A stretch of 37,588 nt of DNA from an uncultured beta proteobacterium (GCA_903868285.1 CAIPUP010000256.1:1-37588), one strand, 5' to 3'; shown: positions 3,923-22,237, numbered from the stretch's first letter. Numbers and translations: made by a program. Notes: generated by a model not told the origin, from the sequence alone.

Positions 3923-5539
3923 ATGGAAGCATTGTTGCGATTTACATCCTGGGCTGCATCGCTGCTGTTGGCAGTGTTGTGTTGGGCGCTGGCGGTGAGT
4001 CAGGGGTCGCTGTTACTGCAAGGCTTTGCAGTTTTGTTTGGGCTGATGTTCCTGGTGGGCTGCGCCGATGTGATGCAGTCCCATCACGCCATCCTGCGCA
4101 ACTACCCGCTGATCGGTCATTGCCGTTTTTTGCTGGAATACATCCGGCCGGAGATACGCCAGTATTTTCTGGAAGACGATGAAGCCAAGCTGCCGTTCTC
4201 GCGCAATCAGCGTGCCTTGGTGTATGCGCGTGCCAAGGGGCAGAACGACAAGCGTGGCTTCGGCACCATCAAGGCGGTCTACGACAAGGACAGCGAGTGG
4301 CTGAGCCAATCCATGGCACCACGCCATGCCAGTCCCGAGAGTTTTCGCGTCAGCATCGGCGGCCCGCAGTGTCGTGTGCCGTATTCGGCCTCGGTGTTCA
4401 ACATCTCGGCCATGAGTTTCGGTTCGCTCTCGGCCAATGCCATCCGCGCCCTAAATCGTGGCGCCAAGCTCGGTGGCTTTGCGCACGACACCGGTGAGGG
4501 CTCCTTGTCGCCTTATCACCGTGAATTCGGTGGCGACATCATCTGGGAGCTGGGTTCGGGCTACTTTGGTTGCCGCACCCCGCATGGACAGTTCTCGCCG
4601 GAGAACTTCGCCCGTCAGGCCGCCGACCCGCAGGTCAAGATGATCGAAATCAAAGTCTCGCAGGGCGCCAAGCCCGGACATGGCGGCGTGCTGCCAGCGG
4701 CCAAGGTGTCGGCCGAGATCGCCCTCACGCGCGATGTGCCGATGGGCCAGGACTGTGTCTCGCCGGCCGGTCACCCCGAGTTTTCCACGCCCTTGCAACT
4801 GATGGATTTCATCCGTCGCCTGCGTGAACTCAGTCATGGCAAGCCAGTGGGCTTCAAGCTCTGTATCGGTCAGCCCTGGGAATTCTTTGGCGTGGCCAAG
4901 GCCATGTTGCAAACCGGTATCTATCCCGATTTCATCGTGGTCGATGGCAGCGAAGGCGGTACCGGTGCTGCGCCGGTGGAGTTCACCGACCATGTCGGCA
5001 TGCCGCTGCGCGAAGGACTGCGCCTGGTGCACAACACGCTCACCGGCATCGGCCTGCGTCAGCACATCCGACTCGGCGCCTCGGGCAAGATCATCTCGGC
5101 CTTCGACATCGTGCGCGCCATGGCACTGGGCGCCGACTGGTGCAATTCGGCGCGCGGCTTCATGTTTGCCCTGGGCTGCATTCAGTCGCGCTCCTGCCAT
5201 ACCGACTTCTGCCCGACCGGCGTTGCCACGCAGGACAAGCTGCGTCAGCGCGCCCTGGTGGTGCCGGACAAAGCGCAACGGGTGCAGCAGTTCCACCGCA
5301 ACACGGTGGAGTCGCTGGCCGAGTTGATCGGTGCTGCCGGCCTGACCCACCCGGGGCAGGTGCGCCCGGAGCTATTGATGATGCGCGACGCCACCGGCCA
5401 GGCGGTACCGATGTCGCGCCAGCTGCCGACGCTGGCCGAAGGCGTGTTGCTGAACGACGTGGGCAATAGCGACCAATGGCCCGAACCGTTTCGTAGTTAT
5501 TGGCAGCGTAGCCGGGTGGAGGCGTTCGGGTTGGCTTGA
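3923..5539 (+). CDS. FMN-binding glutamate synthase family protein (GltB FMN-domain homologue, membrane anchored)
   Basis: Motifs ISAMSFGSLS, KVSQGAKPGHGGVLP, VVDGSEGGTGAAP and ALGADWCNSARGFMFALGC. Two hydrophobic N-terminal helices. ATG at 3923 with GGGGAG upstream; the track start at 3899 is a TTG. Confidence 0.85.
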   Translation: MEALLRFTSWAASLLLAVLCWALAVSQGSLLLQGFAVLFGLMFLVGCADVMQSHHAILRNYPLIGHCRFLLEYIRPEIRQYFLEDDEAKLPFSRNQRALVYARAKGQNDKRGFGTIKAVYDKDSEWLSQSMAPRHASPESFRVSIGGPQCRVPYSASVFNISAMSFGSLSANAIRALNRGAKLGGFAHDTGEGSLSPYHREFGGDIIWELGSGYFGCRTPHGQFSPENFARQAADPQVKMIEIKVSQGAKPGHGGVLPAAKVSAEIALTRDVPMGQDCVSPAGHPEFSTPLQLMDFIRRLRELSHGKPVGFKLCIGQPWEFFGVAKAMLQTGIYPDFIVVDGSEGGTGAAPVEFTDHVGMPLREGLRLVHNTLTGIGLRQHIRLGASGKIISAFDIVRAMALGADWCNSARGFMFALGCIQSRSCHTDFCPTGVATQDKLRQRALVVPDKAQRVQQFHRNTVESLAELIGAAGLTHPGQVRPELLMMRDATGQAVPMSRQLPTLAEGVLLNDVGNSDQWPEPFRSYWQRSRVEAFGLA

Positions 5540-5604
5540 TTGAATCGCCCAAGCCTGTGGTTTCTCCAGTGTGGGCGATAATTACTTTTTTGAGGAGCGT
5601 CGCT

Positions 5605-5808
5605 ATGCGCATGACTGCTGTGCTGACCCCGGCCGAGGAGGGTGGTTACGTTGCCCTGAACCCGGAGACAGGCACCACGACGCAGGGGGATACCCTGCAG
5701 GAGGCACTGAGCAATCTCAAAGAGGCCACCAGTCTGTATCTGTCGGAATTCCCTGTTCAGGTCAATTCGCATCCGGTTGTGACCAGCTTCGACGTGGCGC
5801 ATGCCTAA
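5605..5808 (+). CDS. hicB: type II antitoxin, short HicB family (UPF0150-like, no DNA-binding domain)
   Basis: 67 aa, MRMTAVLTPAEEGGYVALNPETGTTTQGDTLQEALSNLKEATSLYL, which is the typical short HicB fold sequence. GAGGAG RBS at 5592-5597. The stop overlaps the hicA start by 8 nt. Confidence 0.8.
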   Translation: MRMTAVLTPAEEGGYVALNPETGTTTQGDTLQEALSNLKEATSLYLSEFPVQVNSHPVVTSFDVAHA

Positions 5809-6016
5809 GTTTCCGGGGCTGTCGGGCGCGGATGTTGTGCGTGCCTTGCGACGGCTCGGCTTTGTCCAAATTCGTCAATCGGGCAGTCACATATTGATGC
5901 GCAGGGCCGAGCGGGGTTGCGTGGTGCCCAATCATCGTGAGCTCAAGCTTGGAACGGTCAACGGCATCCTAAGGCAAGCAGGTGTCTCGCCTGATGAATT
6001 TGCCAGCGTGCTATGA
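5801..6016 (+). CDS. hicA: type II toxin HicA (mRNA interferase, YcfA-like)
   Basis: 71 aa, with GADVVRALRRLGF..RQSGSHILM containing the conserved G-S-H. Genetically coupled to hicB (ATG inside the hicB 3' end). Confidence 0.85.
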   Translation: MPKFPGLSGADVVRALRRLGFVQIRQSGSHILMRRAERGCVVPNHRELKLGTVNGILRQAGVSPDEFASVL

Positions 6017-6105
6017 GACGTGCAATGTCAGTGGCGCTGTTGTTATGGCTTGGTCCAGGGTGAGTTGAAGCCCGTGCGTCATTGCAGCAAATGATCGGAG
6101 TTCAC

Positions 6106-6591
6106 ATGTTCGACATGAGTCTGCCGTGGTGGGAGTTTGTGCTGCGTGGTGCGGTGGTCTATTTGTTTCTGATGGTGATGCTGCGCTTTACCGGCAAGCG
6201 CCAGACCGGACAGCTGGCACCGTTCGATCTCATTCTGTTGCTGATCCTCAGCAATGCCTTGCAGAACGCCATGAACGGCGGCGATAACAGCCTGGTCGGC
6301 GGCCTGATTTCGGCCCTCACCCTGATTGGCCTGAACTACGCCGTGGGTTGGTTGGTGTTCAACAGCAAATGGGTCGAGGCGCTCGTAGAGGGAAAGCCTA
6401 AGTTATTGATTCATAACGGAATTGTGAACGAGCAGGCGATACGCAGCGAACTGCTTACGCATCACGAGCTGTCGGCGGCCCTGCGCGCTGCCGGTTGCGC
6501 CGACATCGATCATGTGCGCAGCGCCACGCTCGAGAACAACGGTCAGATCACGGTGTCGCTGCGCCCGGTGCCGGCGCGCGAGCCAAGCTAG
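6106..6591 (+). CDS. DUF421 (YetF-like) membrane protein
   Basis: N-terminal TM helices, the GKRQTGQLAPFDLILLLILSNA motif and a C-terminal soluble domain typical of DUF421. ATG at 6106 with GGAG upstream. Confidence 0.8.
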   Translation: MFDMSLPWWEFVLRGAVVYLFLMVMLRFTGKRQTGQLAPFDLILLLILSNALQNAMNGGDNSLVGGLISALTLIGLNYAVGWLVFNSKWVEALVEGKPKLLIHNGIVNEQAIRSELLTHHELSAALRAAGCADIDHVRSATLENNGQITVSLRPVPAREPS

Positions 6592-7415
6592 CCCTGCATC
6601 GGCAGCGCCGCGAACGGTGCTGCTGATGCGATGAACGACGGATTCAGCACATCGGCCTTGCCATAGCGCAGTGGCGAGCCGTAGACATCGAAGACATGGC
6701 CACCGGCGCCTTCGAGCACCGCTTGCGCGGCAGCGGTATCCCATTCGCAGGTCGGCGCCAGACGCGGATAGATGTCGGCGTTGCCCTCGGCCACGCGACA
6801 GAATTTCAGTGAACTGCCGGCCTGCACCAGATCGGTGTTGGAAAAGCGCGCAATGAATTCACGCGTTTCCGCATTCAGATGGCTCTTGCTGGCGACCACC
6901 CGTACCGTGTCGCGTTGCGGATGCTTGAGCGAAACATGCAGCGCGCGGATGCCGCTGGGGCGCTTGCGAAAAGCGCCGAAATGCCGGCCGCCCCAGTACA
7001 TTTCGTCGAGCGCCGGTGCATACACCACACCGAATTGCGGCGTACCGGCGCAGATCAGGGCGATGTTCACAGTGAACTCGCCATTGAAGGCCAGAAACTC
7101 CTTGGTGCCATCCAGCGGATCGATGAGCCAGAAGCAGCCATCACTCTCGCGGTAGTGGCCGGGCTCATCCTCCTCGGACACGACCGGAATATGCGGTGTC
7201 AGCCATTGCAAGCCCTCGCAGATCATGTCGTGCGCCGCCAGATCGGCCAGGGTCAGCGGGCTGTCATCGGCTTTGTTGTCCAGTTGGGCCGATCGACCGC
7301 CATCGCCGTCATGACGCGCGCCGTCATAGATCTCCAGGATGGCATCGCCAGCGCGTACCGCCAGTTCCATCAGGCGTGGCTGCAAATTCTGCAAATCGTG
7401 TTTGGTCAGGCTCAT
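6588..7415 (-). CDS. cysQ: 3'(2'),5'-bisphosphate nucleotidase (PAP phosphatase)
   Basis: Inositol-monophosphatase family motifs VSEED and WLIDPLDGTKEF, with the CysQ-like C-terminus. The start overlaps the cysNC stop (ATGA). Confidence 0.85.
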   Translation of the reverse strand: MSLTKHDLQNLQPRLMELAVRAGDAILEIYDGARHDGDGGRSAQLDNKADDSPLTLADLAAHDMICEGLQWLTPHIPVVSEEDEPGHYRESDGCFWLIDPLDGTKEFLAFNGEFTVNIALICAGTPQFGVVYAPALDEMYWGGRHFGAFRKRPSGIRALHVSLKHPQRDTVRVVASKSHLNAETREFIARFSNTDLVQAGSSLKFCRVAEGNADIYPRLAPTCEWDTAAAQAVLEGAGGHVFDVYGSPLRYGKADVLNPSFIASAAPFAALPMQG

Positions 7416-9250
7416 GCGGGTTTCCTTTCCTGTGCAATCAGGGCAGCGATCATTTCTGCTGCCTCCGGTGCCGAGGTTTCAGTGGTGTTAATGCGGAGTT
7501 CAGGCTGCAGCGGTGCTTCATACGGACTGTCGATACCGGTGAAATTCTTGATCACACCCGAGCGCACCTTGGCATACAGACCTTTCGGATCGCGTTGTTC
7601 GCACACTGCAATTGGCGTGTCGACGAACACTTCCAGGAAATCGCCAGCGGGCAACAGGCCACGCGCAAGGTCGCGGTCGGCGCGATAGGGCGAGATCAGT
7701 GAGACCAGAACGATCAGTCCGGCATCGGTCATGAGTCGTGCGATCTCGGCCACGCGGCGGATGTTCTCGACCCGGTCGGCTTCGGTGAAGCCAAGGTCGC
7801 GGTTGATGCCATGTCGCAGGTTGTCGCCGTCGAGCACATAGGTGTGGCGGCCGGCCGCATGCAAACGTTTTTCCAGCAGATTGGCAATGGTCGATTTGCC
7901 CGAGCCCGACAGGCCGGTGAACCAGACGCAGCGTGCCTGTTGTTGTTTTTGCTGCTGGCGAGCCTCGCGATCGACATCCAGGCTGTGCCAGTGAATATTG
8001 CTGGAGCGGCGCAGGGCGAAGTGAATCATGCCGGCGGCCACGGTTTCCTTGCTCAGCCGGTCCACCAGGATCAATCCGCCGAGGGTGCGGTTGCGCGCAT
8101 AAGATTCGAAGGGCAGGGCGCGGTTGACGCTCAGGTTGACCACGGCGATGGTGTTGCGTGATACCGAGCGCGCCGACAGATGCGCACCGGAGTTGATGTC
8201 GAGCTCGTACTTGATCGAGGTGATGGTGGCGTTGGCGCGCTGATGATGTAGCTTCAGCTCATAGCTGCGTCCCGCAACCAGTGGCTTTTCCGACAGCCAC
8301 AGCAGGCGCACTTCAAACTGATCAGCGCACTCCACCGGCGTATCGATGCTGGTGATGACATCGCCACGGCTGATGTCGACCTCTTCGGCCAGGGTCAGCG
8401 TGACCGATTGACCGCATTCGGCATGGGGCAGATCACCGTCCATGCTGACAATGCGCTGCACATGCGCGGTGGCACCCGAAGGCAGCACTCGCACGGCATC
8501 GCCCGGAGCAATGCTGCCGGCCGCGATGCGTCCGCAATAGCCGCGAAAATCCAGGTTCGGCCGATTGACCCATTGCACCGGCATGCGGAAATCGGCGCTT
8601 TGTTCATTGTCGATGTGCACCGCTTCCAGGCAACCGAGCAGGCTTGGCCCTTGATACCAGGGCGCGGCGCTGCTACTGCTGATGAGGTTGTCGCCGTTGA
8701 GTGCCGACAGCGGAATGAAGCTGATGCTGGTGAAATCCAGATCATGGGCGAAGGCACGATAGTCGCGCTCGATATCGGCAAAGCGCTGCTCGCTCCAGTC
8801 CACCAGATCCATCTTGTTGATGGCAATCACCACATGCCGGATACCCAGCATGTGCACGATGCGGCTGTGGCGGCGGGTCTGGGTCAGCACGCCCTTGCGG
8901 GCATCAATCAGGATCACTGCCAGTTCGGCGCCTGAGGCACCAGTGGCCATATTGCAGGTGTACTGCTCATGGCCGGGCGTATCGGCAACGATGAACTTGC
9001 GCCTGGCGGTACGGAAAAAACGATAGGACACATCGATAGTGATGCCCTGTTCGCGTTCCGCTTGCAAGCCGTCCAGCAGCAGGGCGTAGTCCAGCCCCTC
9101 GCCTTGGGTGCCATGGGCGCGTGAATCCTTGTGCAGGGTGGCGATATGGTCCTCCGGCAGCGAGCCGGTATCCCACAGCAGACGACCGATCAGGGTCGAC
9201 TTGCCGTCATCCACGCTGCCGCAGGTAATGAAGCGCAGCAAATCATTCAT
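7412..9250 (-). CDS. cysNC: bifunctional sulfate adenylyltransferase subunit 1 / adenylylsulfate kinase
   Basis: N-terminal GTPase motifs GSVDDGKSTLIGRLL, DTPGHEQY and NKMD. The C-terminal APS-kinase domain has the P-loop FTGLSGSGKSTIA. Confidence 0.93.
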   Translation of the reverse strand: MNDLLRFITCGSVDDGKSTLIGRLLWDTGSLPEDHIATLHKDSRAHGTQGEGLDYALLLDGLQAEREQGITIDVSYRFFRTARRKFIVADTPGHEQYTCNMATGASGAELAVILIDARKGVLTQTRRHSRIVHMLGIRHVVIAINKMDLVDWSEQRFADIERDYRAFAHDLDFTSISFIPLSALNGDNLISSSSAAPWYQGPSLLGCLEAVHIDNEQSADFRMPVQWVNRPNLDFRGYCGRIAAGSIAPGDAVRVLPSGATAHVQRIVSMDGDLPHAECGQSVTLTLAEEVDISRGDVITSIDTPVECADQFEVRLLWLSEKPLVAGRSYELKLHHQRANATITSIKYELDINSGAHLSARSVSRNTIAVVNLSVNRALPFESYARNRTLGGLILVDRLSKETVAAGMIHFALRRSSNIHWHSLDVDREARQQQKQQQARCVWFTGLSGSGKSTIANLLEKRLHAAGRHTYVLDGDNLRHGINRDLGFTEADRVENIRRVAEIARLMTDAGLIVLVSLISPYRADRDLARGLLPAGDFLEVFVDTPIAVCEQRDPKGLYAKVRSGVIKNFTGIDSPYEAPLQPELRINTTETSAPEAAEMIAALIAQERKPA

Positions 9251-9307
9251 GCGCTTGTCCCTGCAAGCGATGGTACGGAGGGTGTTGCGTAGTACCGGCG
9301 TGACACA

Positions 9308-10207
9308 TCAGAAATACCCCTCCTGCTTTTTGCGTTCCATCGAGCCCGCGCCATCGTGATCAATGGCGCGGCCCTGGCGCTCGGACTGGCGCGAGCTGAG
9401 TGTTTCGTTGACGATTTCTTCCAGCGTCGTGGCCGTGCTGTCGATGGCACCCGAGAGCGGATAGCAGCCCAGGGTGCGAAAGCGGATCAGCCTCTGCTGC
9501 GGCACTTCGCCCGGGTTGAGACGCATGCGGTCGTCGTCGACCATGATCCAGGCGCCATTGCGTTGCACCACCGGACGCTCCTTGGCGAAATACAAAGGCA
9601 CGATGTCGAGTTGTTCCTGGGCGATGTATTGCCAGACATCGGCCTCGGTCCAGTTCGAGAGCGGAAACACCCGCATCGAATCACCCTCCTGCAGTTGCAG
9701 GTTGGGTAGCGACCATAGCTCCGGGCGCTGCGCTTTCGGGTCCCAGCGATGGCCAGCGGCACGCATGGAGTAAATGCGTTCCTTGGCGCGCGACTTTTCT
9801 TCATCGCGGCGCGCACCACCAAAGGCGGCGGTGAAGCCGTGTTGATCCAGTGCCTGTTTCAGGGCCTGGGTTTTCATGACATCGGTGTAATACGAGGAAC
9901 CATGATCGAAGGGGTTGATGCCCTCGGCCTGACCTTGCGGGTTGGTGTAGACGATCAGATCGAGCTCGGCTTCGCGCGCCACACGGTCGCGAAAGGCGAT
10001 CATTTCCCGAAACTTCCAGGTGGTATCGATATGCATCACCGAAAACGGCAGTCGCGCCGGATAGAAAGCCTTGCGCGCCAGATGCAGCAGTACCGTGCTG
10101 TCCTTGCCGATGGAATACAGCATCACCGGACGGGCACATTCGGCCACTGTTTCGCGAAAGATCTGGATGCTCTCGGCTTCCAGCTTTTGCAGCTGACTAA
10201 GACTCAT
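9308..10207 (-). CDS. cysD: sulfate adenylyltransferase subunit 2
   Basis: [15 protein letters not shown]-terminus and [14 protein letters not shown] (SxGKDS PP-loop), with full-length CysD-like sequence. I chose the ATG at 10207; the track uses the GTG at 10216. Confidence 0.93.
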
Positions 10208-10254
10208 GGCAGGCACTCATGCGGCATTGCGTTGTGTGTGTTGGTTGATGACGT

Positions 10255-11073
10255 TCAAGCGCTGATGCCCAGCCACTGCGAGAACAGTGCAATGCGTGCC
10301 TCGTCGTCGGGTTTGGACTGCTTTTTGAGCGAGGTCTGCATGGCACTTACCGCTGCGCAACCGTTCTGCGCCAGGATGTGGTTGAAGATCTCCAGCTGCT
10401 GCGGGCCGATGAAGTCTTCATAAACAATGGTGTCGTGGCAGTAGCGATCGGTATTGGCGGTCATGTAGCTGTCGTACTCGGCCAGCACCTGCAGATAGCG
10501 GCAGATCTGCGTGAATTGCACTTCCACCTTGGCAATCGGCTTGTCGCCGGATTGCCAGGCTTTGGTCAGATCGGCCTTGGCAAACGAAAACGCCTGGCTG
10601 ACCTTGTTGCGGCGGGTGATCTTGTAGACCTGGTCAAAGCCCAGATCAAAAAATTCCACGCCCTGTTTTTTCAGCTTGGCATGCTGATAGGCGTGGATTT
10701 TGACCGAGAACACGCCATTGGCCGAAGTGGTTTTGCGAAACAGAAAGTCCAGGTACTCATCCAGATTGATATCGCGCTCATCGATCTTGTTGAGCTTGGC
10801 CCAGCTGTTGATGTACTTGAGTGAAAAGTATTCATCCGGGATGCCGAACTGCCCGGTGTTGTCCAGCGCATCGCAAAGAAAGGACGAACCCGAACGCTCG
10901 GTGGAGAGGAAGGCTATCTTGCGCGTGGGCATGCCGACCTGGTCGGGGCGCTCTGACAGGCGCTGATACAGACGTTCGCGCCGTTCGGCAAAGGTCACCA
11001 GTTCGGCCTGCTCGGCGGATTGCTGCTGCGTGGGGAGGGTTTCCATCTTCATCGGTGCCGCCTTTGCTGACAT
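10255..11073 (-). CDS. Stf0-family (PAPS-dependent) sulfotransferase, acceptor unknown
   Basis: A 5'-phosphosulfate-binding loop-like FLSTERSGSSFL, followed by DEYF. A 3'-phosphate-binding region TRRNKVSQAFSFAKADLTKAW resembles the Stf0 R-x-D-x-V-x-QA-x-SF-x-x-A-x-x-T-x-x-W pattern. The start is uncertain: ATG at 11073 or 11052, or the track TTG at 11088. Confidence 0.72.
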   Translation of the reverse strand: MSAKAAPMKMETLPTQQQSAEQAELVTFAERRERLYQRLSERPDQVGMPTRKIAFLSTERSGSSFLCDALDNTGQFGIPDEYFSLKYINSWAKLNKIDERDINLDEYLDFLFRKTTSANGVFSVKIHAYQHAKLKKQGVEFFDLGFDQVYKITRRNKVSQAFSFAKADLTKAWQSGDKPIAKVEVQFTQICRYLQVLAEYDSYMTANTDRYCHDTIVYEDFIGPQQLEIFNHILAQNGCAAVSAMQTSLKKQSKPDDEARIALFSQWLGISA

Positions 11074-11087
11074 GTTCGAATGTTGCA

Positions 11088-11120
11088 AACTTCGGTTGTG
11101 AACTTCGGTTGCGAACTTAG
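11088..11120. repeat. tandem direct repeat of a 13-bp unit: AACTTCGGTTGTG, AACTTCGGTTGCG, then a partial AACTTAG
   Basis: Read directly. It lies immediately upstream of (or touching) the sulfotransferase start region. Confidence 0.6.
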
Positions 11121-11263
11121 TTTATTGCGTTCGACCTGTTCTCAGCAATTGCTATGCCAAGGAATTTGGGCGGCTTTTCTGCCTTTGAGCGGCAACAACT
11201 TGCACGGCAGGCGTTGTTTGCGCGGTTTGTCTTGCCGCGGCTGTTCAACGGGTGCTGGTCGGG

Positions 11264-11279
11264 CGGCAAAGCTTTGCCG
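11264..11279. promoter_or_regulatory. perfect 16-bp palindrome CGGCAAAGCTTTGCCG; candidate dimeric-regulator operator
   Basis: Read directly. It sits in the divergent intergenic region, 66 nt upstream of the Aas-like ATG (11345). Confidence 0.35.
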
Positions 11280-11335
11280 CTGGCATGCGGTAATCTGCGC
11301 CGCGCAAGTTCGCGAGCCAGGCCAGTGCAACGCAA

Positions 11336-11343
11336 GGGGGGGG
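11336..11343 (+). repeat. G8 homopolymer forming the SD-like AAGGGGGGGG immediately 5' of the Aas-like start codon
   Basis: Read directly: ...gcaa gggggggg c atg. Confidence 0.6.
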
Positions 11344-11344
11344 C

Positions 11345-12976
11345 ATGCAAGGTTTATGGAAGCGTCTGAGAATGAGATCGCCTCGCCCGGTCGCTTCGCC
11401 GCCCCGGCCGGGCGGGCCCACTCGTTCGGCTACCTTGTATTCCGCGCTGTGCGATGCGATGGCGCGGCAAGGGCGTGGCTACCGAGTACTCGAAGATATG
11501 CGTCGGGTGGAGTATCGCTATCAGGACCTGCTAAAGATGGTGCTGATGCTGACCCGACTGGTGGAGCGTGCCGCACCACTGTCGGAAGCAGGTTCCTCAA
11601 TCGGCCTGCTGTTGCCAAATGTGGCACCGACTGTGGCGCTGATTTTTGGGCTGTCTGCCCGTGGGCGTACCCCTGCCATGCTCAATTACACCGCTGGTGC
11701 GGATGCGTTGATTGCCGCCTGCCGCATGGCCCAACTGCAGACTGTGATCAGTTCGCGGACGTTTGAAGAACAGGCGCAACTGGGTGAGCGCATCAAGGCC
11801 TTGCGCGAGGCTGGCTCGGTACGCGTGCTCTACCTGGAAGATCTTCGCGCGGCGATTGGTGTTGTCGACAAGCTGTGGTTGATGGCCTGGGCCCTGTGGC
11901 GTCCGCGCCAGTTCGAGCTGGCCGATGCCGCCGATAGTGAACGGCCCGCAGTGTTGCTGTTTACCTCCGGTTCGGAGGACAAACCCAAGGGTGTGGTGTT
12001 GCCGCATCGCGCGCTGCTGGCCAATCTGGCGCAGATTCATGCCGTGATTGAACTTGGTGCGCAGGACAAGATACTGAGTGCGCTACCAGTGTTCCATTGC
12101 TTTGGATTGACCGCGGGGGCGTTGTTGCCACTCTTGGGTGGCACGCGATTGTTTCTCTACACGTCGCCCTTGCACTACCGGGTTATCCCCGAGCTGGCTT
12201 ACGAACGTGCTTGCACGGTGCTGTTTGGTACCAGTACTTTTCTTGGACACTATGCACGCCATGCCCAGCCGCACGAGTTTTGCCATTTACGCTATGTCAT
12301 TGCTGGCGCAGAACGATTGAATGAAGGTGTGCGGCAACTTTGGCAGGAAAAATTCGGTTTGCAAATTTTCGAAGGCTATGGCGCGACCGAGACCGCGCCG
12401 GTGTTGAGTGTGAACACGCCAGCGGCGCATCGCACGGGCTCAGTGGGCCGCTTTCTGCCCTTAATTGAATGGCGTCTCAGTGCGATTGAAGGGATTTCGC
12501 GCGGTGGCCGATTGCATGTACGTGGCCCCAATGTCATGAGCGGTTACCTCCGACACGACCGTCCGGGTGATGTGCATCCGGTGTCTTCGAGTGAAGGCGA
12601 TGGCTGGTACGACACCGGGGATATCGCCGAAGTGGATGCCGATGGCTTTGTTTTTCTGCTCGGCCGCGTGAAGCGCTTCGCCAAGGTGGCGGGTGAGATG
12701 GTGAGCCTGGAAATGGTGGAGCTGTTGGCGCAAGCCTGTTCCCCTGCAGCCAGTCATGCTGCCTCGATGCGGGCGGATGCTGCCCGAGGTGAGTTGTTGG
12801 TGTTGTTCTCCACCGATGCCAGCCTGAGCAGGGAGGCGTTGCAACGCAAGGCGCGGGAGCTTGGCTACGCCGAGCTGGTGGTGCCCCGCAAGTTGGTGGT
12901 GCTCGAGAGCTTGCCGCTACTGGGCAGCGGCAAGCTTGACTATGTGACGCTGCGGGGGATGGCGGAGGAAGTGTGA
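11345..12976 (+). CDS. AMP-binding enzyme most similar to the acyl-ACP synthetase domain of Aas (stand-alone, no acyltransferase domain)
   Basis: LLFTSGSEDKPKGVVLPHRALLAN, PVFHCFGLT, SPLHYRVIPELAYERACTVLFGTSTFLGHYAR and RYVIAGAERL closely track my memory of the E. coli Aas C-terminal domain. The AMP-binding superfamily assignment is certain; the Aas-type assignment is less so. Confidence 0.8.
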   Translation: MQGLWKRLRMRSPRPVASPPRPGGPTRSATLYSALCDAMARQGRGYRVLEDMRRVEYRYQDLLKMVLMLTRLVERAAPLSEAGSSIGLLLPNVAPTVALIFGLSARGRTPAMLNYTAGADALIAACRMAQLQTVISSRTFEEQAQLGERIKALREAGSVRVLYLEDLRAAIGVVDKLWLMAWALWRPRQFELADAADSERPAVLLFTSGSEDKPKGVVLPHRALLANLAQIHAVIELGAQDKILSALPVFHCFGLTAGALLPLLGGTRLFLYTSPLHYRVIPELAYERACTVLFGTSTFLGHYARHAQPHEFCHLRYVIAGAERLNEGVRQLWQEKFGLQIFEGYGATETAPVLSVNTPAAHRTGSVGRFLPLIEWRLSAIEGISRGGRLHVRGPNVMSGYLRHDRPGDVHPVSSSEGDGWYDTGDIAEVDADGFVFLLGRVKRFAKVAGEMVSLEMVELLAQACSPAASHAASMRADAARGELLVLFSTDASLSREALQRKARELGYAELVVPRKLVVLESLPLLGSGKLDYVTLRGMAEEV

Positions 12977-12984
12977 ATCTGTCT

Positions 12985-13014
12985 GGAAAAAATTCAAATA
13001 AATCAACAGGTTAT
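12985..13014 (+). promoter_or_regulatory. AT-rich repeat element copy C in opposite orientation (GGAAAAAATTCAAATAAATCAACAGGTTAT); the core AATCAACAGGTTA fits WATCAANNNNTTR
   Basis: Located in the spacer between the Aas-like gene stop and the acyl-CoA ligase gene. Confidence 0.35.
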
Positions 13015-13122
13015 GCTTCTTCTTGGCTGGTGCCTCGGGCCGCGGGTTATGACCGGGCCACAATGGGTGCGCACACTTCCACGGCATAATCCCGCTTCCG
13101 TCTCATCGCAGGTGCAGCCGTT

Positions 13123-14703
13123 ATGCGTATGGAAGCCATTCTTGCCGGTCATGCTCGTCGCCGGCCCCGTCATGAAGCCATGGTGCATGGCGATCGCCGC
13201 ATGTCCTATGGCGATTTGCAGGCCTCGGTGCGGTATTGCGCTGCGCATCTGTATGCCTTGGGGGTGAAACCGGGCGACCGGGTGTTGCTGTATCTGCCCA
13301 ATGGCTTCGAGTTCATCCAGGTGCTGTATGCCGCCTTCAGTCTGGGGGCGGCGGTGGTGCCGGTGAATACCCGGCTCACCGGACGCGAAGTGGCGCATAT
13401 CTGCGCCGATTCGCAGCCGTCGGTGGTGGCCTATGGCGCCGAAGCGCGTGCGGTGATCGAGCAGGCCGCGGCCGGCAGTGATTGCATCCGTCTGGTGCTG
13501 GGTGAGCCGCAGGCGGGTGCACAGGTCCGTGAGCTTGCGCTGGCACCGATGCTCGCGGCCGGCCCGCAGGATGCCGCCACGCGCGCGGCGCTTGGCGATC
13601 ATCCCTATCGCCTGCCGGATATTCCGCATGAGCGCGACGAGTGCGTGATCCTCTACACCTCGGGCACCACCGGCAAGGCCAAGGGTGCGGTCAATACGCA
13701 TTCCAATATGTTGATGCAAAGCGTCTATATGCATGGCATCGAGTGGGGCATGCATCGTGACGACCGTTTCATGGTCACCACGCCGATCGCGCATCGTGCT
13801 GGTTTTGCCCGCCTGCTCAACGCCATGGGGCTGGGCGGAACGCTGGTGATCATGGATCGCTTCGACGCCACCATGGCGGTAGATGTGATCGAGCGTGAAC
13901 GCATTTCCGTCACCGGTCTGCCGCCAACGGTGATCCGCATGATGCTGCCGCAGATCCGTGACAACCCGGCCCGTCTTGCCACGCTGCGGGTGGTGGCGGT
14001 GTCGACCGAATCGTTTCCGGTGCCGCTGAAAAAAGAAGTCATGGCGCTGCTGCCGCAGGTGCGCTTTCATTCCTTTCTTGGTTCGTCCGAAGCGATTGTG
14101 TCGGAGCTCACGCCCGAGGAGCAGATCACCCATCCGTCATCGGTGGGGCATCCGCTGCCGGGAGTGGAGGTGCGTATCGAGGACGAGCAGGGCAACGAGG
14201 TTGCCGATGGCGAAGCCGGCGAGTTGTGCGTGCGTGCCGGTCCGCCCGGTGCCGATGCGGTGATGAAGTGCTATTTCAATAACCCGCAAGCCACCGCAGC
14301 CGCCTTTGCCGGCGGCTGGTACCACACCGGCGATATGGCGCGGCGCGATGCCGACGGCTATCTGTATGTGGTGGATCGCAAGAAGGACATGGTGTTGTCG
14401 GGCGGCTTCAACATCTATTCCAAGGAAGTCGAGGACGTGTTGCGCACCCATCCGGCCGTGGCCGATGCGGCGGTGATCGGTGTGCCCGATGCCATGTACG
14501 GCGAAGCGGTGGCGGCTTTTGTCGAACTGCGTGCCGACATGACGCTGGATGCACAGACGCTGATCGAGTTCACCCGGACCGATCTGGCCGGCTACAAGAA
14601 GCCCAAGCATGTCTGGTTCATGCCCTTACCGCGTAATTCCATCGGCAAGGTGACCAAGAACGATCTGCGTGACGAAGCCAAAAAGCGCATGGAGGCCGCG
14701 TGA
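13123..14703 (+). CDS. acyl-CoA synthetase / AMP-dependent ligase (class I adenylate-forming)
   Basis: ILYTSGTTGKAKGA AMP motif, YHTGDMARRDADGYLYVVDRKKD, and the C-terminal GKVTKNDLR lysine motif. Confidence 0.88.
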   Translation: MRMEAILAGHARRRPRHEAMVHGDRRMSYGDLQASVRYCAAHLYALGVKPGDRVLLYLPNGFEFIQVLYAAFSLGAAVVPVNTRLTGREVAHICADSQPSVVAYGAEARAVIEQAAAGSDCIRLVLGEPQAGAQVRELALAPMLAAGPQDAATRAALGDHPYRLPDIPHERDECVILYTSGTTGKAKGAVNTHSNMLMQSVYMHGIEWGMHRDDRFMVTTPIAHRAGFARLLNAMGLGGTLVIMDRFDATMAVDVIERERISVTGLPPTVIRMMLPQIRDNPARLATLRVVAVSTESFPVPLKKEVMALLPQVRFHSFLGSSEAIVSELTPEEQITHPSSVGHPLPGVEVRIEDEQGNEVADGEAGELCVRAGPPGADAVMKCYFNNPQATAAAFAGGWYHTGDMARRDADGYLYVVDRKKDMVLSGGFNIYSKEVEDVLRTHPAVADAAVIGVPDAMYGEAVAAFVELRADMTLDAQTLIEFTRTDLAGYKKPKHVWFMPLPRNSIGKVTKNDLRDEAKKRMEAA

Positions 14704-15842
14704 AGTTTTCCTATTTTCATCTGATGCCCTATACCGACCTGGCGATGGAGGATTACACCGGCGCCAACGCACCAGGCTGGCCCTTTACCAATCGCGATCA
14801 GGACCCGCACAAGGTGCAGCAGATGTATCGCACCTATGTTGATGACATGGTGCATGCCGAGAGTTGCGGCTTTGACTGGGTCGGTTGCAACGAACATCAC
14901 TACACGCCCTACGGCATGATGGCCAATCCCAACATCATTGGCGGTGCCTTGGCCTATCGCACCTCGCGTGCGCGTATCGCGATGATCGGCAACATCATTC
15001 CGATCAACAATCCAGTGCGGGTGGCGGAGGAATACGCCATGCTCGATTGCATGAGCGGTGGCCGCCTGATGGCCGGTTTCATGCGCGGCATTCCGCATGA
15101 GTACATTGCCTACAACCTGCCGCCGTCGGAGTCGTGGGAACGCCAGCGCGAGGCGATTGCGCTGATCAAGAAATGCTGGACCGAACCCGAGCCGTTTGGC
15201 TGGGAAGGCAAACACTTCCAGTTCAAGCAGATCGCCATCTGGCCCAAGCCGTTTCAGAAGCCGCATCCGCCGTTTCTGGTCTCGGCCAGCAACCCGGATT
15301 CGGCCCGCTTTGCCGGCGAGGTGGGCGCAACCATGGGCATGGTGCTGATCTCCGACCTGGACAGCACGCGCGAGTGCATTGAAATCTATCGTGAATCGGC
15401 GCGCCAGCATGGCTGGGAACCCAAGCCCGAGAACGTGCTGATCGGCATGCATTGCCTGATCGCCGACAGCGATGAAGAGGCGCGGCGCTGGATGGCCAGC
15501 GGACGCGAGTATTTCAACAAGCTGCTGATGAGCCCGCAGCGCGAGGCCATGGGCATGGTGATCCGCGAGACGCGCTATTTTCAGGACGACGCCAGTCGCG
15601 ACCGCTGGCGCAATCGATTGGCCAGTCGTGGCGAGGCCACGCTGGAGCAGGCGATTGATCGCGGCACGATCATCTGTGGCAGTCCCGAAACAGTGGTGGC
15701 GCAAATCAAGCGGGTGCATGCCGCACTGGGTCATGGCGTGTTCAATTTCACGGTCAAGGTCGGCAATGTGCCGGATGCGGTGATTCGTCATGGCATGGAG
15801 CTGTTCCGGGACCGGGTATTGCCGCATGTGAGGGACCTGTAA
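14700..15842 (+). CDS. LLM-class flavin-dependent oxidoreductase/monooxygenase
   Basis: The GTG start overlaps the upstream stop (GTGA), with GGAGG RBS at 14691-14695. The N-terminus (M)KFSYFHLMPY and the length of 380 aa are typical of the luciferase-like family. Confidence 0.88.
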   Translation: MKFSYFHLMPYTDLAMEDYTGANAPGWPFTNRDQDPHKVQQMYRTYVDDMVHAESCGFDWVGCNEHHYTPYGMMANPNIIGGALAYRTSRARIAMIGNIIPINNPVRVAEEYAMLDCMSGGRLMAGFMRGIPHEYIAYNLPPSESWERQREAIALIKKCWTEPEPFGWEGKHFQFKQIAIWPKPFQKPHPPFLVSASNPDSARFAGEVGATMGMVLISDLDSTRECIEIYRESARQHGWEPKPENVLIGMHCLIADSDEEARRWMASGREYFNKLLMSPQREAMGMVIRETRYFQDDASRDRWRNRLASRGEATLEQAIDRGTIICGSPETVVAQIKRVHAALGHGVFNFTVKVGNVPDAVIRHGMELFRDRVLPHVRDL

Positions 15843-16648
15843 TGAGCAAGCCAGTCATGGAAAACACGCAGCCCGCACACGAGGTGCGCAGCATTGATGT
15901 TGAGCAAGGCAGTCTGGATGTGCTGGTGGGTGGCAGCGGTTCGCCGGTGCTGTATCTGCATCCGGCGGGTGGCATACGCTGGACGGCAGTGCATGTAGCA
16001 CTGGCGCGCGCACACACGGTGTATGCGCCGGTGGCGCCCGGCTTCGATGGCCGTGCGCTGCATCCGGCTGCCAGCAGCGTGCAGACTCTGGCTGCGCTGT
16101 ATGGCCGCTTGTGCGATCAGCTGATCGGCGCGCCGTGCGATGTCATCGGCCACTCGTTCGGGGGCTGGGTGGCGGCATGGCTGGCGGTGCAGCGTCCGGA
16201 TTGCGTCGAGCAGCTGGTGCTATCGGCTGCGGCCGGTTTTCGGCCGGCTGATGCCCCGGCCATGCCGGCTACGCCCGAGGCCTTTGCGCGCGCGCTGTAT
16301 CGCCATCCGGAACATCTGACTGACACACCGAAATTGCCCGACACGGATGCCGCCAATCGGGCGCAATACCTGAAATACAACGGCGGAATGACACGCGATG
16401 AGGCATTGATTGCACGGTTGCCCGAGATCGATCGCCTGACCATGATCGTGCATGGCACGCATGACGGCATCATTCCCGACAGCAGTTCGCAGCAGTTACG
16501 GCGTTGGATACGGCGTTCTTATCTGATGTACCTGTGGGATGCCGGGCACGGCCTGGAAGTGGATCAGCCCGAGCGCATGAGCGAATTGTTGCTGAGCTTT
16601 TTTGCGCGCTCGGAGGCCTTCATGGTGAACTGGGGTAAGGCTACTTAG
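15842..16648 (+). CDS. alpha/beta-fold hydrolase
   Basis: GHSFGG nucleophile elbow (G-x-S-x-G). A late Asp (HGTHDGIIP) and His (DAGHGLEVDQPE) fit the catalytic triad. The start overlaps the upstream stop (TAATG). Confidence 0.85.
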   Translation: MSKPVMENTQPAHEVRSIDVEQGSLDVLVGGSGSPVLYLHPAGGIRWTAVHVALARAHTVYAPVAPGFDGRALHPAASSVQTLAALYGRLCDQLIGAPCDVIGHSFGGWVAAWLAVQRPDCVEQLVLSAAAGFRPADAPAMPATPEAFARALYRHPEHLTDTPKLPDTDAANRAQYLKYNGGMTRDEALIARLPEIDRLTMIVHGTHDGIIPDSSSQQLRRWIRRSYLMYLWDAGHGLEVDQPERMSELLLSFFARSEAFMVNWGKAT

Positions 16649-17826: not shown

Positions 17827-17849
17827 TATGGACGATCGGCAGCGGGTTG

Positions 17850-18263
17850 TTATTGCGTACTGTCGTCAGGGATGAATTTCAGCGCCACACCATTGTTGCA
17901 ATAGCGCAGTCCCGTCGGCTGCGGACCATCTTTGAACACATGGCCATGGTGACCGCCGCAGCGCGCACAGTGATATTCGGTGCGTGGCATCAGCAATTTG
18001 TGATCGGTGCTGGTTTCGAACGCGCCGGGCAGGGTGGTAAAGAACGACGGCCAACCGGTACCGGAATTGAATTTCATCTCGGATTTGAACAAGGGCGTGT
18101 CGCAGCCGGCACAGACATAGGTGCCAGAACGCTTTTCTTCGTTCAACGGACTGGTGCCAGCGTATTCGGTGCCTTCATGTCGCAGCACCTGATAGGCCTC
18201 GGGGTCGAGACGCTTGCGCCACTCGTCGTCGGGAAGTTCCTGCTTTTTGCTGTTATCGGTCAT
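17850..18263 (-). CDS. msrB: peptide-methionine (R)-S-oxide reductase
   Basis: Two CxxC zinc pairs (CAGCDTPLF and CARCGGHHGHVF) and the catalytic RYCNNG motif. 137 aa. Confidence 0.93.
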   Translation of the reverse strand: MTDNSKKQELPDDEWRKRLDPEAYQVLRHEGTEYAGTSPLNEEKRSGTYVCAGCDTPLFKSEMKFNSGTGWPSFFTTLPGAFETSTDHKLLMPRTEYHCARCGGHHGHVFKDGPQPTGLRYCNNGVALKFIPDDSTQ

Positions 18264-18398
18264 GATTTCTCTCGAATTAGTAATGTTGATGACATTATGA
18301 ACTGTGATTGATCGTGACTGAACTGAGTTGCCTCATTTTGCGATGAATTCTTGGCGTTTCTACTCTGGAGAGAGCAGGCCGGATGATAAGATTCGCGC

Positions 18399-19721: not shown

Positions 19722-19799
19722 TCAGCCCCAGATTCTCTGTGACGGTCGATGCAATGTCGACCATCGCGCCGGTTTCTTGATTCCTGAGGAGGAGACATC

Positions 19800-20918: not shown

Positions 20919-20927
20919 TCGGGGCAC

Positions 20928-20936
20928 TGCTAGAAT
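20928..20936 (+). promoter_or_regulatory. candidate extended -10 (TGcTAGAAT) for the binding-protein / acyl-CoA ligase unit
   Basis: It lies 10 nt after the MetE-like stop and about 100 nt upstream of the ATG at 21041. There is no good -35. Confidence 0.22.
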
Positions 20937-21002
20937 CGATACGACTGCCCAAGGCGGTCGCTGTTCCGGCAGGAAGTGCGGCTGGTTGCCGCGAAAAGGG
21001 AA

Positions 21003-21020
21003 ACTGCATCGCAATGCAGT
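21003..21020 (+). promoter_or_regulatory. perfect 7-bp stem / 4-nt loop hairpin (ACTGCAT-CGCA-ATGCAGT) in the 5' leader of the binding-protein gene
   Basis: Read directly. It ends 6 nt before the GAGGAGG SD. Confidence 0.3.
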
Positions 21021-21040
21021 CAAAACGAGGAGGAACGAGG

Positions 21041-22231: not shown

Positions 22232-22237
22232 TGCGCG

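What the first reader, a model, noticed from the sequence alone, without database searches (positions are those of the whole stretch)
6588..11073. Self-contained sulfation operon: Stf0-type sulfotransferase + cysD + cysNC + cysQ, acceptor unknown
- **Seen:** four co-directional minus-strand genes are separated by 38 nt, 57 nt and an ATGA overlap.
- **Seen:** the first gene has PAPS-binding-like motifs of the Stf0 sulfotransferase family (FLSTERSGSSFL and RRNKVSQAFSFAKADLTKAW).
- **Established:** CysD/CysN make APS, and the fused CysC domain (intact P-loop GLSGSGKST) converts it to PAPS, the universal sulfotransferase donor. CysQ hydrolyses PAP, the inhibitory by-product of sulfotransferases.
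- **Inference:** the unit therefore encodes donor synthesis, transfer and by-product removal, like nodPQ/nodH, raxPQ/raxST or the mycobacterial cysDNC/stf0 logic, rather than plain sulfate assimilation.
- No glycosyltransferase, peptide precursor or exporter is in the operon, so the sulfated product is unknown. To my knowledge Stf0-like enzymes in proteobacteria are essentially uncharacterised.
Basis: partly seen in the sequence, partly recalled or inferred. Interest (0 to 1): 0.72.

Follow-up and report, generated by a model that had tools for sequence, protein, structure and literature searches.

The report
Sulfation operon tied to flagellin modification
A four-gene unit that makes the sulfate donor PAPS, transfers the sulfate and clears the by-product is real, and relatives place it in flagellin-modification gene islands under the same promoter type as flagellin, which predicts a sulfated flagellar filament that I found no report of in bacteria.

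Summary
Four co-directional minus-strand genes encode an Stf0-family sulfotransferase (10255-11052), CysD, a fused CysN-CysC and CysQ, all with intact motifs and under purifying selection (dN/dS 0.05-0.08). The sulfotransferase has the Stf0 fold and PAPS-binding residues but is not a trehalose-2-sulfotransferase ortholog. Its subfamily is rare: one 50%-identity cluster among 1.84 billion representatives.

New here is a candidate acceptor. In related freshwater Comamonadaceae the orthologous module, or the sulfotransferase alone, lies inside flagellin glycosylation islands (IspD-SDR, LicD-like, GT41, tandem flagellins). Its nearest CysNC relatives and a 33%-identical sulfotransferase cousin sit in flagellar or flagellin-glycosylation-type clusters too.

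A sigma-54 -24/-12 element precedes the sulfotransferase in every arrangement, including the window (11144-11159). In four flagellin-island loci its only other matches are upstream of flagellin genes.

Best reading: a flagellar-regulon sulfation module that modifies a flagellin-linked glycan or ribitol-phosphate, relocated in this genome.

Not tested: the product itself, and whether a second cysDN/cysH set exists.

The parts
11264..11279 (.). Perfect palindrome CGGCAAAGCTTTGCCG, 105 nt upstream of the -24 element. Candidate enhancer (activator-binding) site.
   Evidence: Conserved in all type A relatives although the flanking DNA has diverged. A near-identical palindrome, CGGCAAATTTGCCG, lies upstream of a flagellin sigma-54 promoter in L001 and L002. 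CGGCAA is the most enriched 6-mer upstream of these promoters: 25 observed against 3.4 expected. The function is inferred. The site could instead serve the divergent AMP-binding gene.
11144..11159 (-). Sigma-54 type -24/-12 promoter element, TGGCATAGCAATTGCT, 92 nt from the -12 end (107 nt from its first base) to the sulfotransferase start codon.
   Evidence: The only match to TGGCAYN5TTGCW in the 37.6 kb window; chance expectation 0.23. An equivalent element is present upstream of the sulfotransferase in all three locus arrangements. In L001, L002, L003 and L020 the only other matches precede flagellin genes. In silico only.
11082..11120 (-). Three tandem 13-nt copies (AAGTTCGCAACCG / AAGTTCACAACCG / AAGTTTGCAACAT) in the predicted leader.
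   Evidence: family D3. There is a single copy in the close relatives L016 and L004. Function unknown.
10255..11052 (-).
   Evidence: PF09037 at 50.1 bits against a cutoff of 22. AlphaFold pLDDT 85.6 and best PDB hit 1TEX Stf0, E 2e-10. Invariant R53-S54-G55-S56, E74, K150 and S156. dN/dS 0.084.
9308..10207 (-). CysD, the small subunit of ATP sulfurylase (299 aa from ATG 10207; a GTG at 10216 is the alternative start).
   Evidence: NF009214 at 516 bits and PF01507. dN/dS 0.045.
7412..9250 (-). CysN-CysC fusion: the GTPase subunit of ATP sulfurylase plus APS kinase. This makes PAPS.
   Evidence: NF004035 at 963 bits, full length; PF00009 plus PF01583. The GTPase motifs (GSVDDGKST, DTPGH, NKMD) and kinase motifs (GLSGSGKST, LDGDN, ISPY, KGLYAK) can be read directly.
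6588..7415 (-). CysQ, a 3'(2'),5'-bisphosphate nucleotidase that removes PAP. Its start overlaps the cysNC stop (ATGA).
   Evidence: TIGR01331 at 266.7 bits against a cutoff of 228.8. DPLDGT and WDTAA motifs are present.

Best explanation
This is one transcription unit, driven by a sigma-54 promoter, that supplies and uses activated sulfate in the cytoplasm.

How it works:
1. CysD and the CysN domain make APS.
2. The fused CysC domain phosphorylates APS to PAPS.
3. The Stf0-family enzyme transfers the sulfuryl group to a hydroxyl group of its acceptor.
4. CysQ hydrolyses the inhibitory by-product PAP.

The most likely acceptor is a modification carried by flagellin: a glycan or a ribitol-phosphate group, or its nucleotide-activated precursor. 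Sulfation would take place before flagellin is exported. The operon would then be part of the late flagellar regulon, switched on together with the flagellin genes. A dedicated PAPS supply and PAP removal make sense for this, because a filament needs thousands of modified subunits.

In this genome the whole unit, promoter included, sits away from the flagellin island, next to unrelated metabolic genes.

What is shown and what is inferred:
- Shown: gene identities, intact motifs, fold, conserved linkage, purifying selection, and the genomic and promoter association with flagellin genes in relatives.
- Inferred: transcription from the sigma-54 element, the PAPS flux, and the identity of the acceptor.
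For: Gene identities and integrity. Purifying selection, dN/dS 0.05-0.11.

Context of the sulfotransferase orthologs (67-74% identity):
- In L001, L002 and L020 the same four genes are followed by a convergent IspD-SDR gene, a LicD-like gene, 3-4 tandem flagellins, flaG and fliD.
- In L003 the sulfotransferase alone sits between a GT41 glycosyltransferase and IspD-SDR, LicD-like and flagellin genes.

Deeper relatives:
- The best-scoring relative outside the subfamily (P0136, 33% identity, E 1.5e-38) is divergent from two flagellins and followed by GT41 and sugar-modifying genes, in a flgK-flgL-fliS-fliD-flaG cluster.
- P0137 (35% identity) is beside GT41-like, DegT and PglD-like genes.

CysNC relatives: at 78% identity the pair is next to four flagellins, and at 73% it is next to a viosamine-island-like sugar cluster. 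In both cases it is paired with a different protein that carries canonical PAPS motifs (LGFxKCGTT, RNQxxRTWS). This looks like non-orthologous replacement.

Promoter:
- A TGGC-N7-TTGC sigma-54 element lies upstream of the sulfotransferase in all three arrangements, although the surrounding DNA cannot be aligned.
- In about 75 kb of L001, L002, L003 and L020, all 14 matches precede either the sulfotransferase or a flagellin gene; chance is about 0.07 per 20 kb.
- The window-type promoter region shares CGGCAA(A) motifs and a palindrome with flagellin promoters.

CysNC's next relatives below 78% identity come from scattered phyla, not from Comamonadaceae housekeeping genes.
Against: - The window has no flagellin, IspD-SDR, LicD, GT41 or any other flagellar gene within 26 kb on one side and 6.5 kb on the other. 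For this genome the link rests on orthology and the promoter only.
- After relocation the module could have been put to another use.
- The sigma-54 element and the enhancer are consensus matches without transcript data.
- The CGGCAA enrichment uses coding-rich background and partly paralogous promoters. It is absent from the type B and C sulfotransferase promoters.
- More distant Stf0-family members occur in polysaccharide and NRPS clusters, so the family does not fix the acceptor.
- No sulfated bacterial flagellin glycan made from PAPS was found in the literature, so there is no chemical precedent.
- Dual use of CysDNC for assimilation cannot be excluded.
Confidence: 0.58

Rival explanations
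1. This is ordinary, or dual-purpose, sulfate assimilation. It would be the genome's only cysDN set, supplying APS or PAPS for cysteine synthesis, and the linked sulfotransferase would be a minor passenger.
For: CysD and CysNC are full-length, canonical enzymes. Fused CysNC is the sole assimilatory enzyme in some proteobacteria such as Pseudomonas and Xanthomonas (my own knowledge). No second copy could be searched for, because only the window is available.
Against: No cysH, cysIJ or sulfate transporter genes are in the window. The promoter is sigma-54 type and, in relatives, is shared only with flagellin genes. The genes are tightly linked to a sulfotransferase and to cysQ in all loci. The CysNC clade is confined to this module and its flagellin-island relatives, and the next hits come from unrelated phyla. 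Burkholderiales assimilate through APS reductase, so APS kinase and CysQ are not needed for assimilation (my own knowledge; not tested here).
Confidence: 0.12
2. In this lineage the module sulfates a small molecule or lipid made by the divergently transcribed neighbours: two AMP-binding enzymes, a luciferase-like monooxygenase and an alpha/beta hydrolase.
For: The sulfotransferase shares a roughly 290-nt intergenic region with the first AMP-binding gene, and this arrangement is kept in all type A loci. A distant Stf0-family member sits in an NRPS cluster.
Against: The adjacency is seen only among near-identical relatives (sulfotransferase 94-96% identical), so it carries little weight. It is absent from types B and C. 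In L004 a toxin-antitoxin pair is inserted between the two AMP-binding genes. The further genes in the row (fumarylacetoacetase-like, MetE-like, periplasmic binding protein) look catabolic rather than biosynthetic. The sigma-54 promoter is the same type as in the flagellin-island loci.
Confidence: 0.12
3. The module sulfates a cell-surface polysaccharide (LPS, capsule or exopolysaccharide), as the rhizobial LpsS and KpsS enzymes do.
For: One source labels the closest homolog 'LPS sulfotransferase NodH'. A 33%-identical family member sits between the wzm-type and wzt-type ABC transporter genes of a glycan cluster that holds a second sulfotransferase.
Against: No polysaccharide assembly or export genes lie next to the module in any ortholog locus. 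The glycosyltransferases seen (GT41, GT4) are inside flagellin islands. The source label is a generic COG name, not a test.
Confidence: 0.1
4. The enzyme sulfates the flagellin polypeptide directly (O-sulfation of Ser, Thr or Tyr) rather than a glycan or polyol.
For: Type B loci contain no classical glycosyltransferase between the module and the flagellins. Tyrosylprotein sulfotransferase is the next structural match after Stf0, E 5.5e-5.
Against: The nearest structural and sequence relative acts on a sugar. The sulfotransferase travels with IspD-SDR plus LicD-like genes or with GT41 in every island, which suggests a carbohydrate or polyol acceptor.
Confidence: 0.08

Closest known systems
Mycobacterial Stf0 with the CysD-CysNC sulfate-activating complex and CysQ (sulfolipid-1 pathway)
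   Same: Same sulfotransferase fold and Pfam family. Arg-type PAPS loop, 3'-phosphate serine and aligned glutamate are shared. Same supply logic: CysD plus fused CysNC plus CysQ.
   Different: Only about 21% identical. It scores 32 bits against the 400-bit cutoff of the trehalose-2-sulfotransferase equivalog model. There are no sulfolipid genes (pks2, papA, mmpL8). In mycobacteria the genes are not one operon with the sulfotransferase. Here the context and promoter point to flagellin.
Rhizobial nodPQ / nodH (Nod-factor sulfation)
   Same: A dedicated CysD and CysN-CysC type pair is linked to a sulfotransferase and placed under pathway-specific rather than cys-regulon control.
   Different: NodH belongs to Sulfotransfer_3, PF13469 (PMC11625862). 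There are no nod genes here. A cysQ gene is included. The promoter is sigma-54, not a NodD/nod-box promoter.
Xanthomonas raxP/raxQ with raxST (tyrosine sulfation of RaxX)
   Same: PAPS synthesis genes are functionally coupled to a sulfotransferase that modifies a secreted protein-type product.
   Different: RaxST is a tyrosylprotein-type sulfotransferase. A peptide precursor and a type I exporter are part of that system, and neither is present here.
Flagellin glycosylation islands (Pseudomonas aeruginosa and P. syringae viosamine island, Campylobacter, Caulobacter FlmG)
   Same: In relatives the sulfotransferase, or the whole module, is embedded next to flagellin genes together with sugar-nucleotide synthesis and transferase genes. 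Modification is expected in the cytoplasm before export.
   Different: None of the described islands I found includes PAPS synthesis or a sulfotransferase. In the window the module is physically separated from any flagellin gene.
Sulfur-containing filament glycans: Clostridioides difficile type B flagellin (sulfonated peptidylamido-glycan, PMC5207245) and the sulfated N-glycans of haloarchaeal archaellins
   Same: They show that negatively charged sulfur groups on motility filaments exist in nature.
   Different: C. difficile carries a sulfonate on a peptidylamido group, reported without a PAPS sulfotransferase module (my understanding). The archaeal case is N-glycosylation of a non-homologous filament.

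Membership tests
Stf0 sulphotransferase family (Pfam PF09037) | Profile match above Pfam's gathering score | tested here: met
   50.1 bits against a cutoff of 22, residues 56-184. The L020 ortholog scores 55 bits over nearly the whole profile.
Stf0 sulphotransferase family (Pfam PF09037) | Stf0-type fold | tested here: met
   AlphaFold model with pLDDT 85.6 and pTM 0.82. The top four Foldseek PDB hits are 1TEX chains: E 2e-10 to 9e-9, TM 0.57-0.67.
Stf0 sulphotransferase family (Pfam PF09037) | Arg-containing 5'-phosphosulfate loop (RSGS), a serine on the 3'-phosphate helix, and a glutamate base | tested here: met
   TERSGSS aligns with SQRSGST, VSQAFS with VSQAVS, and PDEYF with PQEFF of 1TEX. 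R53, S54, G55, S56, E74, K150 and S156 are invariant in 15 sequences. Arg in place of Lys is described for Stf0 in PMC11625862. That the aligned Glu is the catalytic base is my recollection, not tested here.
Trehalose 2-sulfotransferase (true Stf0 ortholog, NCBIfam NF047724) | Equivalog model score at or above the curated cutoff | tested here: not met
   32.2 bits against a cutoff of 400, and only residues 145-202 match. It is not filed as Stf0.
Trehalose 2-sulfotransferase (true Stf0 ortholog, NCBIfam NF047724) | Trehalose as acceptor, and linkage to sulfolipid genes | not testable with these tools
   No sulfolipid genes are present in any locus.
Dedicated PAPS-supply/sulfation operon (nodPQ-nodH type logic) | cysD, a cysN-cysC fusion and a sulfotransferase co-directional and tightly spaced | tested here: met
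   Gaps of 47 (or 38) nt and 57 nt, and a 4-nt overlap. The order is conserved in all ortholog loci.
Dedicated PAPS-supply/sulfation operon (nodPQ-nodH type logic) | A separate housekeeping cysDN/cysH set for assimilation | not testable with these tools
Dedicated PAPS-supply/sulfation operon (nodPQ-nodH type logic) | Pathway-specific rather than cys-regulon control | tested here: inconclusive
   A conserved sigma-54 element lies upstream. This is a sequence prediction only, with no expression data.
Flagellin glycosylation/modification island component | Physical linkage to flagellin genes | tested here: not met
   Not met in the window: no flagellar gene in 37.6 kb. Met in the orthologs and relatives L001, L002, L003, L020, L021, L026 and L027. 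The module is therefore not filed as an island member in this genome, only as working like one.
Flagellin glycosylation/modification island component | Co-regulation with flagellin genes | tested here: inconclusive
   It has the same sigma-54 promoter class as the flagellins and, in four loci, that class is found nowhere else. The CGGCAA motifs are shared. There are no transcript data.
Flagellin glycosylation/modification island component | The modification is actually found on flagellin | not testable with these tools
   This needs mass spectrometry or 35S labelling of purified filaments.

The most novel reading that the evidence does not exclude
Freshwater Comamonadaceae and some other flagellates decorate their flagellin with a PAPS-derived sulfate ester, on a glycan or on a ribitol-phosphate group. 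This would be a class of flagellar post-translational modification that I found no report of in bacteria. It would be supported by a dedicated sigma-54-controlled PAPS supply and PAP clearance operon that belongs to the late flagellar regulon. The window carries a relocated but still flagellar-regulated copy of that module.
Probability: 0.45. Interest if true: 0.75.

Novelty: new variant of a known kind. Interest (0 to 1): 0.64.

Why it matters
Flagellin glycosylation affects filament assembly, motility, phage adsorption and immune recognition. The known modifications are sugars, nonulosonic acids, phospho-linked groups and methylation. A sulfate ester would add strong fixed negative charge to the most exposed and abundant surface polymer of the cell, with likely effects on phage and grazer recognition in lakes.

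The loci give a concrete, testable gene set: sulfotransferase, CysD, CysNC and CysQ, together with IspD-SDR, LicD-like or GT41 genes.

It would also give the first functional context I know of for the proteobacterial branch of the Stf0 family. And it would be an example of a biosynthetic supply operon wired into the flagellar hierarchy. If the flagellin link fails, the finding remains a clean but ordinary nodPQH-like sulfation operon with an unknown acceptor.

Tried and rejected
- Looked in the window for flagellin, IspD-SDR, LicD-like, GT41, ychF, aminotransferase and DUF4337 homologs by tblastn: none.
- Annotated every other window gene: core metabolism only.
- Metagenome scan with the family alignment: only four short extra loci.
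- Searched for IS elements or flanking direct or inverted repeats that could explain relocation: nothing convincing.
- Rfam scan of 5000-12000 for a leader RNA or riboswitch: only sub-threshold noise.
- Generic sigma-70 promoter and terminator scan: uninformative, with counts near shuffle expectation.
- Tried to obtain the Caulobacter FlbD ftr consensus to compare with the CGGCAA palindrome. The primary paper is not held and the review gives no sequence, so no claim of FlbD-type sites is made.
- Considered that the 309-aa and 302-aa unannotated proteins in L021 and L022 might be Stf0-like: no similarity to the family HMM. Only the 299/308-aa pair shows PAPS motifs.
- P0138 (39% identical) lies on a contig too short to be informative.
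- Literature searches for sulfotransferases in flagellin islands found only unrelated mentions.

Full report

Yes. The minus strand between 6588 and 11088 carries four consecutive ORFs.

- The first matches the Stf0 sulphotransferase family, PF09037, at 50.1 bits against a gathering score of 22.
- The second is CysD: NF009214 at 516 bits.
- The third is a full-length CysN-CysC fusion: NF004035 at 963 bits, residues 2-608, with PF00009 and PF01583.
- The fourth is CysQ: TIGR01331 at 266.7 bits against a cutoff of 228.8.

So are these, read directly:
- the CysN GTPase motifs (GSVDDGKST, DTPGH, NKMD);
- the APS-kinase motifs (GLSGSGKST, LDGDN, ISPY, KGLYAK);
- the CysD PP-loop (SIGKDS);
- the CysQ metal-site motifs (DPLDGT, WDTAA).

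There are two small corrections. All homologs, and an independent gene call on a near-identical contig, start the sulfotransferase at MKME. That is position 11052, giving 265 aa. CysD is called from ATG 10207, giving 299 aa, so the first gap is 47 nt rather than 38. The 57-nt gap and the ATGA overlap are as stated.

**2. The sulfotransferase**

An AlphaFold model built on a 15-sequence alignment is confident: mean pLDDT 85.6, pTM 0.82. Its best matches among solved structures are the four chains of Mycobacterium smegmatis Stf0 (1TEX): E 2e-10 to 9e-9, TM about 0.6, 21% identity. Tyrosylprotein, olefin-synthase and heparan 3-O-sulfotransferases follow.

By sequence, TERSGSS aligns with the SQRSGST loop of Stf0, VSQAFS with VSQAVS, and PDEYF with PQEFF. 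The corresponding residues R53, S54, G55, S56, E74, K150 and S156 are invariant even when 27-29% identical relatives are included. A review notes that Stf0 uses arginine instead of the usual lysine in this loop (PMC11625862).

The protein is nevertheless not an Stf0 ortholog. The NCBIfam equivalog model for trehalose 2-sulfotransferase gives 32 bits against a cutoff of 400.

The subfamily is rare.
- A word-indexed search of 5.8 billion proteins found about ten clusters at 65-95% identity and nothing else above 40%.
- An exhaustive HMMER pass over 1.84 billion representatives found 1752 relatives at E <= 1e-3.
- In that pass, the protein's own subfamily collapses to one full-length 50%-identity cluster.

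**3. Where the module occurs**

Genome, metagenome and exact-protein look-ups gave 15 loci with close orthologs. A tblastn panel sorted 14 of them; L024 has the same gene order as the window. They fall into three arrangements.

- **Type A** (the window, L004-L006, L016, L024; sulfotransferase 94-96% identical). The module is divergent from an AMP-binding gene.
- **Type B** (L001, L002, L008-L010, L017-L019, L020; 67-74% identical). The order is ychF, a class V aminotransferase, DUF4337, the sulfotransferase, cysD, cysNC, cysQ. Wherever the contig continues, there follow a convergent IspD-SDR fusion, a 547-aa protein with a LicD domain, three or four tandem flagellin genes, flaG and fliD.
- **Type C** (L003; 67% identical). 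The sulfotransferase stands alone, without cysDNC or cysQ within 10 kb. It lies between a TPR-GT41 glycosyltransferase and the same IspD-SDR, LicD-like and flagellin genes. GT4 enzymes, a UXS-like epimerase and flgL/flgK are nearby.

The organisms named are freshwater Comamonadaceae MAGs.

The window itself has none of these flagellar or glycan genes. Its other genes are core metabolism plus a HicAB pair.

**4. Independent lines linking the module to flagellin**

(a) *CysNC relatives.* CysNC's relatives at 96-100% and 78-83% identity are the same module. Below that, hits fall to 64-73% identity and come from scattered phyla, which is not what a vertically inherited Comamonadaceae housekeeping gene would show.
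- The 78% relative (L021) lies beside flaG and four flagellins.
- The 73% relatives (L022, L023) lie beside a viosamine-island-like cluster with DegT, PglD-like, KAS III, Rieske and TylF genes.
- These loci lack an Stf0-family gene. They encode a different protein pair, 45% identical to each other, with textbook PAPS motifs: LGFxKCGTT and RNQxxRTWS. The Sulfotransfer_1 hit is weak, E 0.007.
- This looks like non-orthologous replacement of the transferase with the donor supply retained.

(b) *Deeper sulfotransferase relatives.* The best-scoring relative outside the subfamily (P0136, 33% identity, E 1.5e-38) is divergent from two 494-aa flagellins. It is followed by GT41, an acetyltransferase and methyltransferases, within a flgK-flgL-fliT-fliS-fliD-flaG cluster. 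Another relative (P0137, 35%) is next to GT41-like, DegT and PglD-like genes.

More distant members (32-39%) occur in an ABC-transporter glycan cluster and next to an NRPS. The wider family is therefore versatile.

(c) *Promoter.*
- A near-consensus sigma-54 -24/-12 element, TGGCATAGCAATTGCT, lies at 11159-11144. Its -12 end is 92 nt from the start codon.
- It is the only match in the window; chance expectation is 0.23.
- Type B loci carry TGGCGTAAAG(T/C/A)TTGCT, and L003 carries TGGCATCCTTATTGCT, at the same relative position. The rest of the upstream DNA cannot be aligned.
- In L001, L002, L003 and L020 (about 75 kb) the pattern occurs 14 times. Four matches are upstream of the sulfotransferase and ten are 105-125 nt upstream of flagellin genes. 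There are none anywhere else, against about 0.07 expected per 20 kb.

(d) *Upstream motifs.*
- An unbiased 6-mer count in the 150 nt upstream of these sites ranks CGGCAA (25 observed, 3.4 expected) and GGCAAA first.
- The window has a perfect palindrome, CGGCAAAGCTTTGCCG, at 11264-11279. It is conserved in type A relatives although the flanking DNA has diverged.
- L001 and L002 have CGGCAAATTTGCCG upstream of a flagellin promoter.
- This last point is weaker. The background is mostly coding DNA, the flagellin promoters are paralogous, and the type B and C sulfotransferase promoters lack the motif.

**5. Is the relocated copy functional?**

Window against L005 gives dN/dS of 0.084 (sulfotransferase), 0.045 (cysD) and 0.052 (cysNC). 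Against type B the values are 0.07-0.11. No IS element, flanking repeat or known RNA element marks the module's borders.

**6. Mechanism proposed**

Inferred steps are marked.

1. A sigma-54 holoenzyme, activated by an enhancer-binding protein of the flagellar hierarchy, transcribes the four genes together with the flagellin genes (inferred from section 4c-d).
2. CysD and CysN form APS, CysC forms PAPS, the sulfotransferase transfers sulfate, and CysQ removes PAP (established biochemistry of these families; the motifs are intact here).
3. The acceptor is a flagellin-borne glycan or ribitol-phosphate, or its activated precursor. It would be modified in the cytoplasm, where PAPS is available and flagellin is modified before export (inferred from context).

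Type B islands contain only a CDP-ribitol-synthase-type fusion and a LicD-type transferase besides the module. A sulfated ribitol-phosphate is therefore a concrete possibility.

The stoichiometric demand of a filament would explain why supply and by-product removal are co-transcribed (inference).

**7. Rivals**

- Plain or dual assimilation cannot be excluded without the rest of the genome. It fits poorly with the promoter, the linkage, the phylogenetic pattern and the missing reduction genes.
- A link to the neighbouring AMP-ligase cluster rests only on adjacency among near-identical genomes.
- Polysaccharide sulfation has no contextual support in the ortholog loci.
- Direct sulfation of the flagellin polypeptide is a sub-variant of the main proposal.

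**8. Comparison with what is known, and novelty**

It belongs to the Stf0 Pfam family but fails the ortholog test.

Full-text searches found no flagellin glycosylation island described with a sulfotransferase or PAPS genes, and no PAPS-derived sulfate on a bacterial flagellin. The nearest cases are the sulfonated peptidylamido-glycan of C. difficile type B flagellin (PMC5207245) and the sulfated archaellin N-glycans.

I rate it a new variant of a known kind. The gene-level finding is solid, the flagellin link is well supported for relatives, and it is moderately supported for this genome.

Noticed in passing
L001 14135-17111; L003 10901-13883 and 733-9870; L020 4618-7609: Flagellin islands of the relatives encode an IspD-SDR fusion (the CDP-ribitol synthase type) and a 547-aa protein with a C-terminal LicD domain, directly downstream of the flagellins. 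L003 adds a UXS-like epimerase, GT41, GT4s, DUF5672 and a sub-threshold RXYLT1_C hit (19.7 bits). The set recalls the ISPD / FKTN-FKRP / RXYLT1 / UXS1 ribitol-phosphate pathway of dystroglycan and predicts a ribitol-phosphate flagellin modification.
   Followed up: partly
L021 11607-12533; L022 7753-8652: Two unannotated proteins, 45% identical to each other, carry canonical PAPS-binding motifs (LGFxKCGTT, RNQxxRTWS). They sit next to cysD-cysNC, with no cysQ, in flagellin or viosamine-like sugar clusters. This is an apparently undescribed sulfotransferase family standing in for the Stf0-like enzyme.
   Followed up: partly
window 11082-11120: There are three tandem 13-nt repeats in the predicted leader of the sulfotransferase gene. 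The close relatives L016 and L004 have only one copy, so the element is polymorphic. Function unknown.
   Followed up: partly
window 5536-6016: A HicB-like (DUF7387, weak) and HicA toxin-antitoxin pair lies beside the YetF-family gene that converges on cysQ with a 4-nt overlap. In L004 a RelB/YafQ pair is inserted between the two AMP-binding genes.
   Followed up: no
L021 5212-7194: A 660-aa M12/reprolysin-like metalloprotease with a weak RTX-repeat hit lies between the tandem flagellins and cysD. It may be a flagellum-associated protease.
   Followed up: no
window 11345-23794: A row of plus-strand genes: two AMP-binding enzymes, a luciferase-like monooxygenase, an alpha/beta hydrolase, fumarylacetoacetase-like, MetE-like, a periplasmic binding protein and a third AMP-binding enzyme. 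An APH-family kinase and MsrB are on the opposite strand. This is probably a catabolic cluster of unknown substrate.
   Followed up: no
window 20840-20856: A second CGGCAA-N5-TTGCCG palindrome (CGGCAATGACATTGCCG) lies inside the MetE-like gene. It is probably chance.
   Followed up: no
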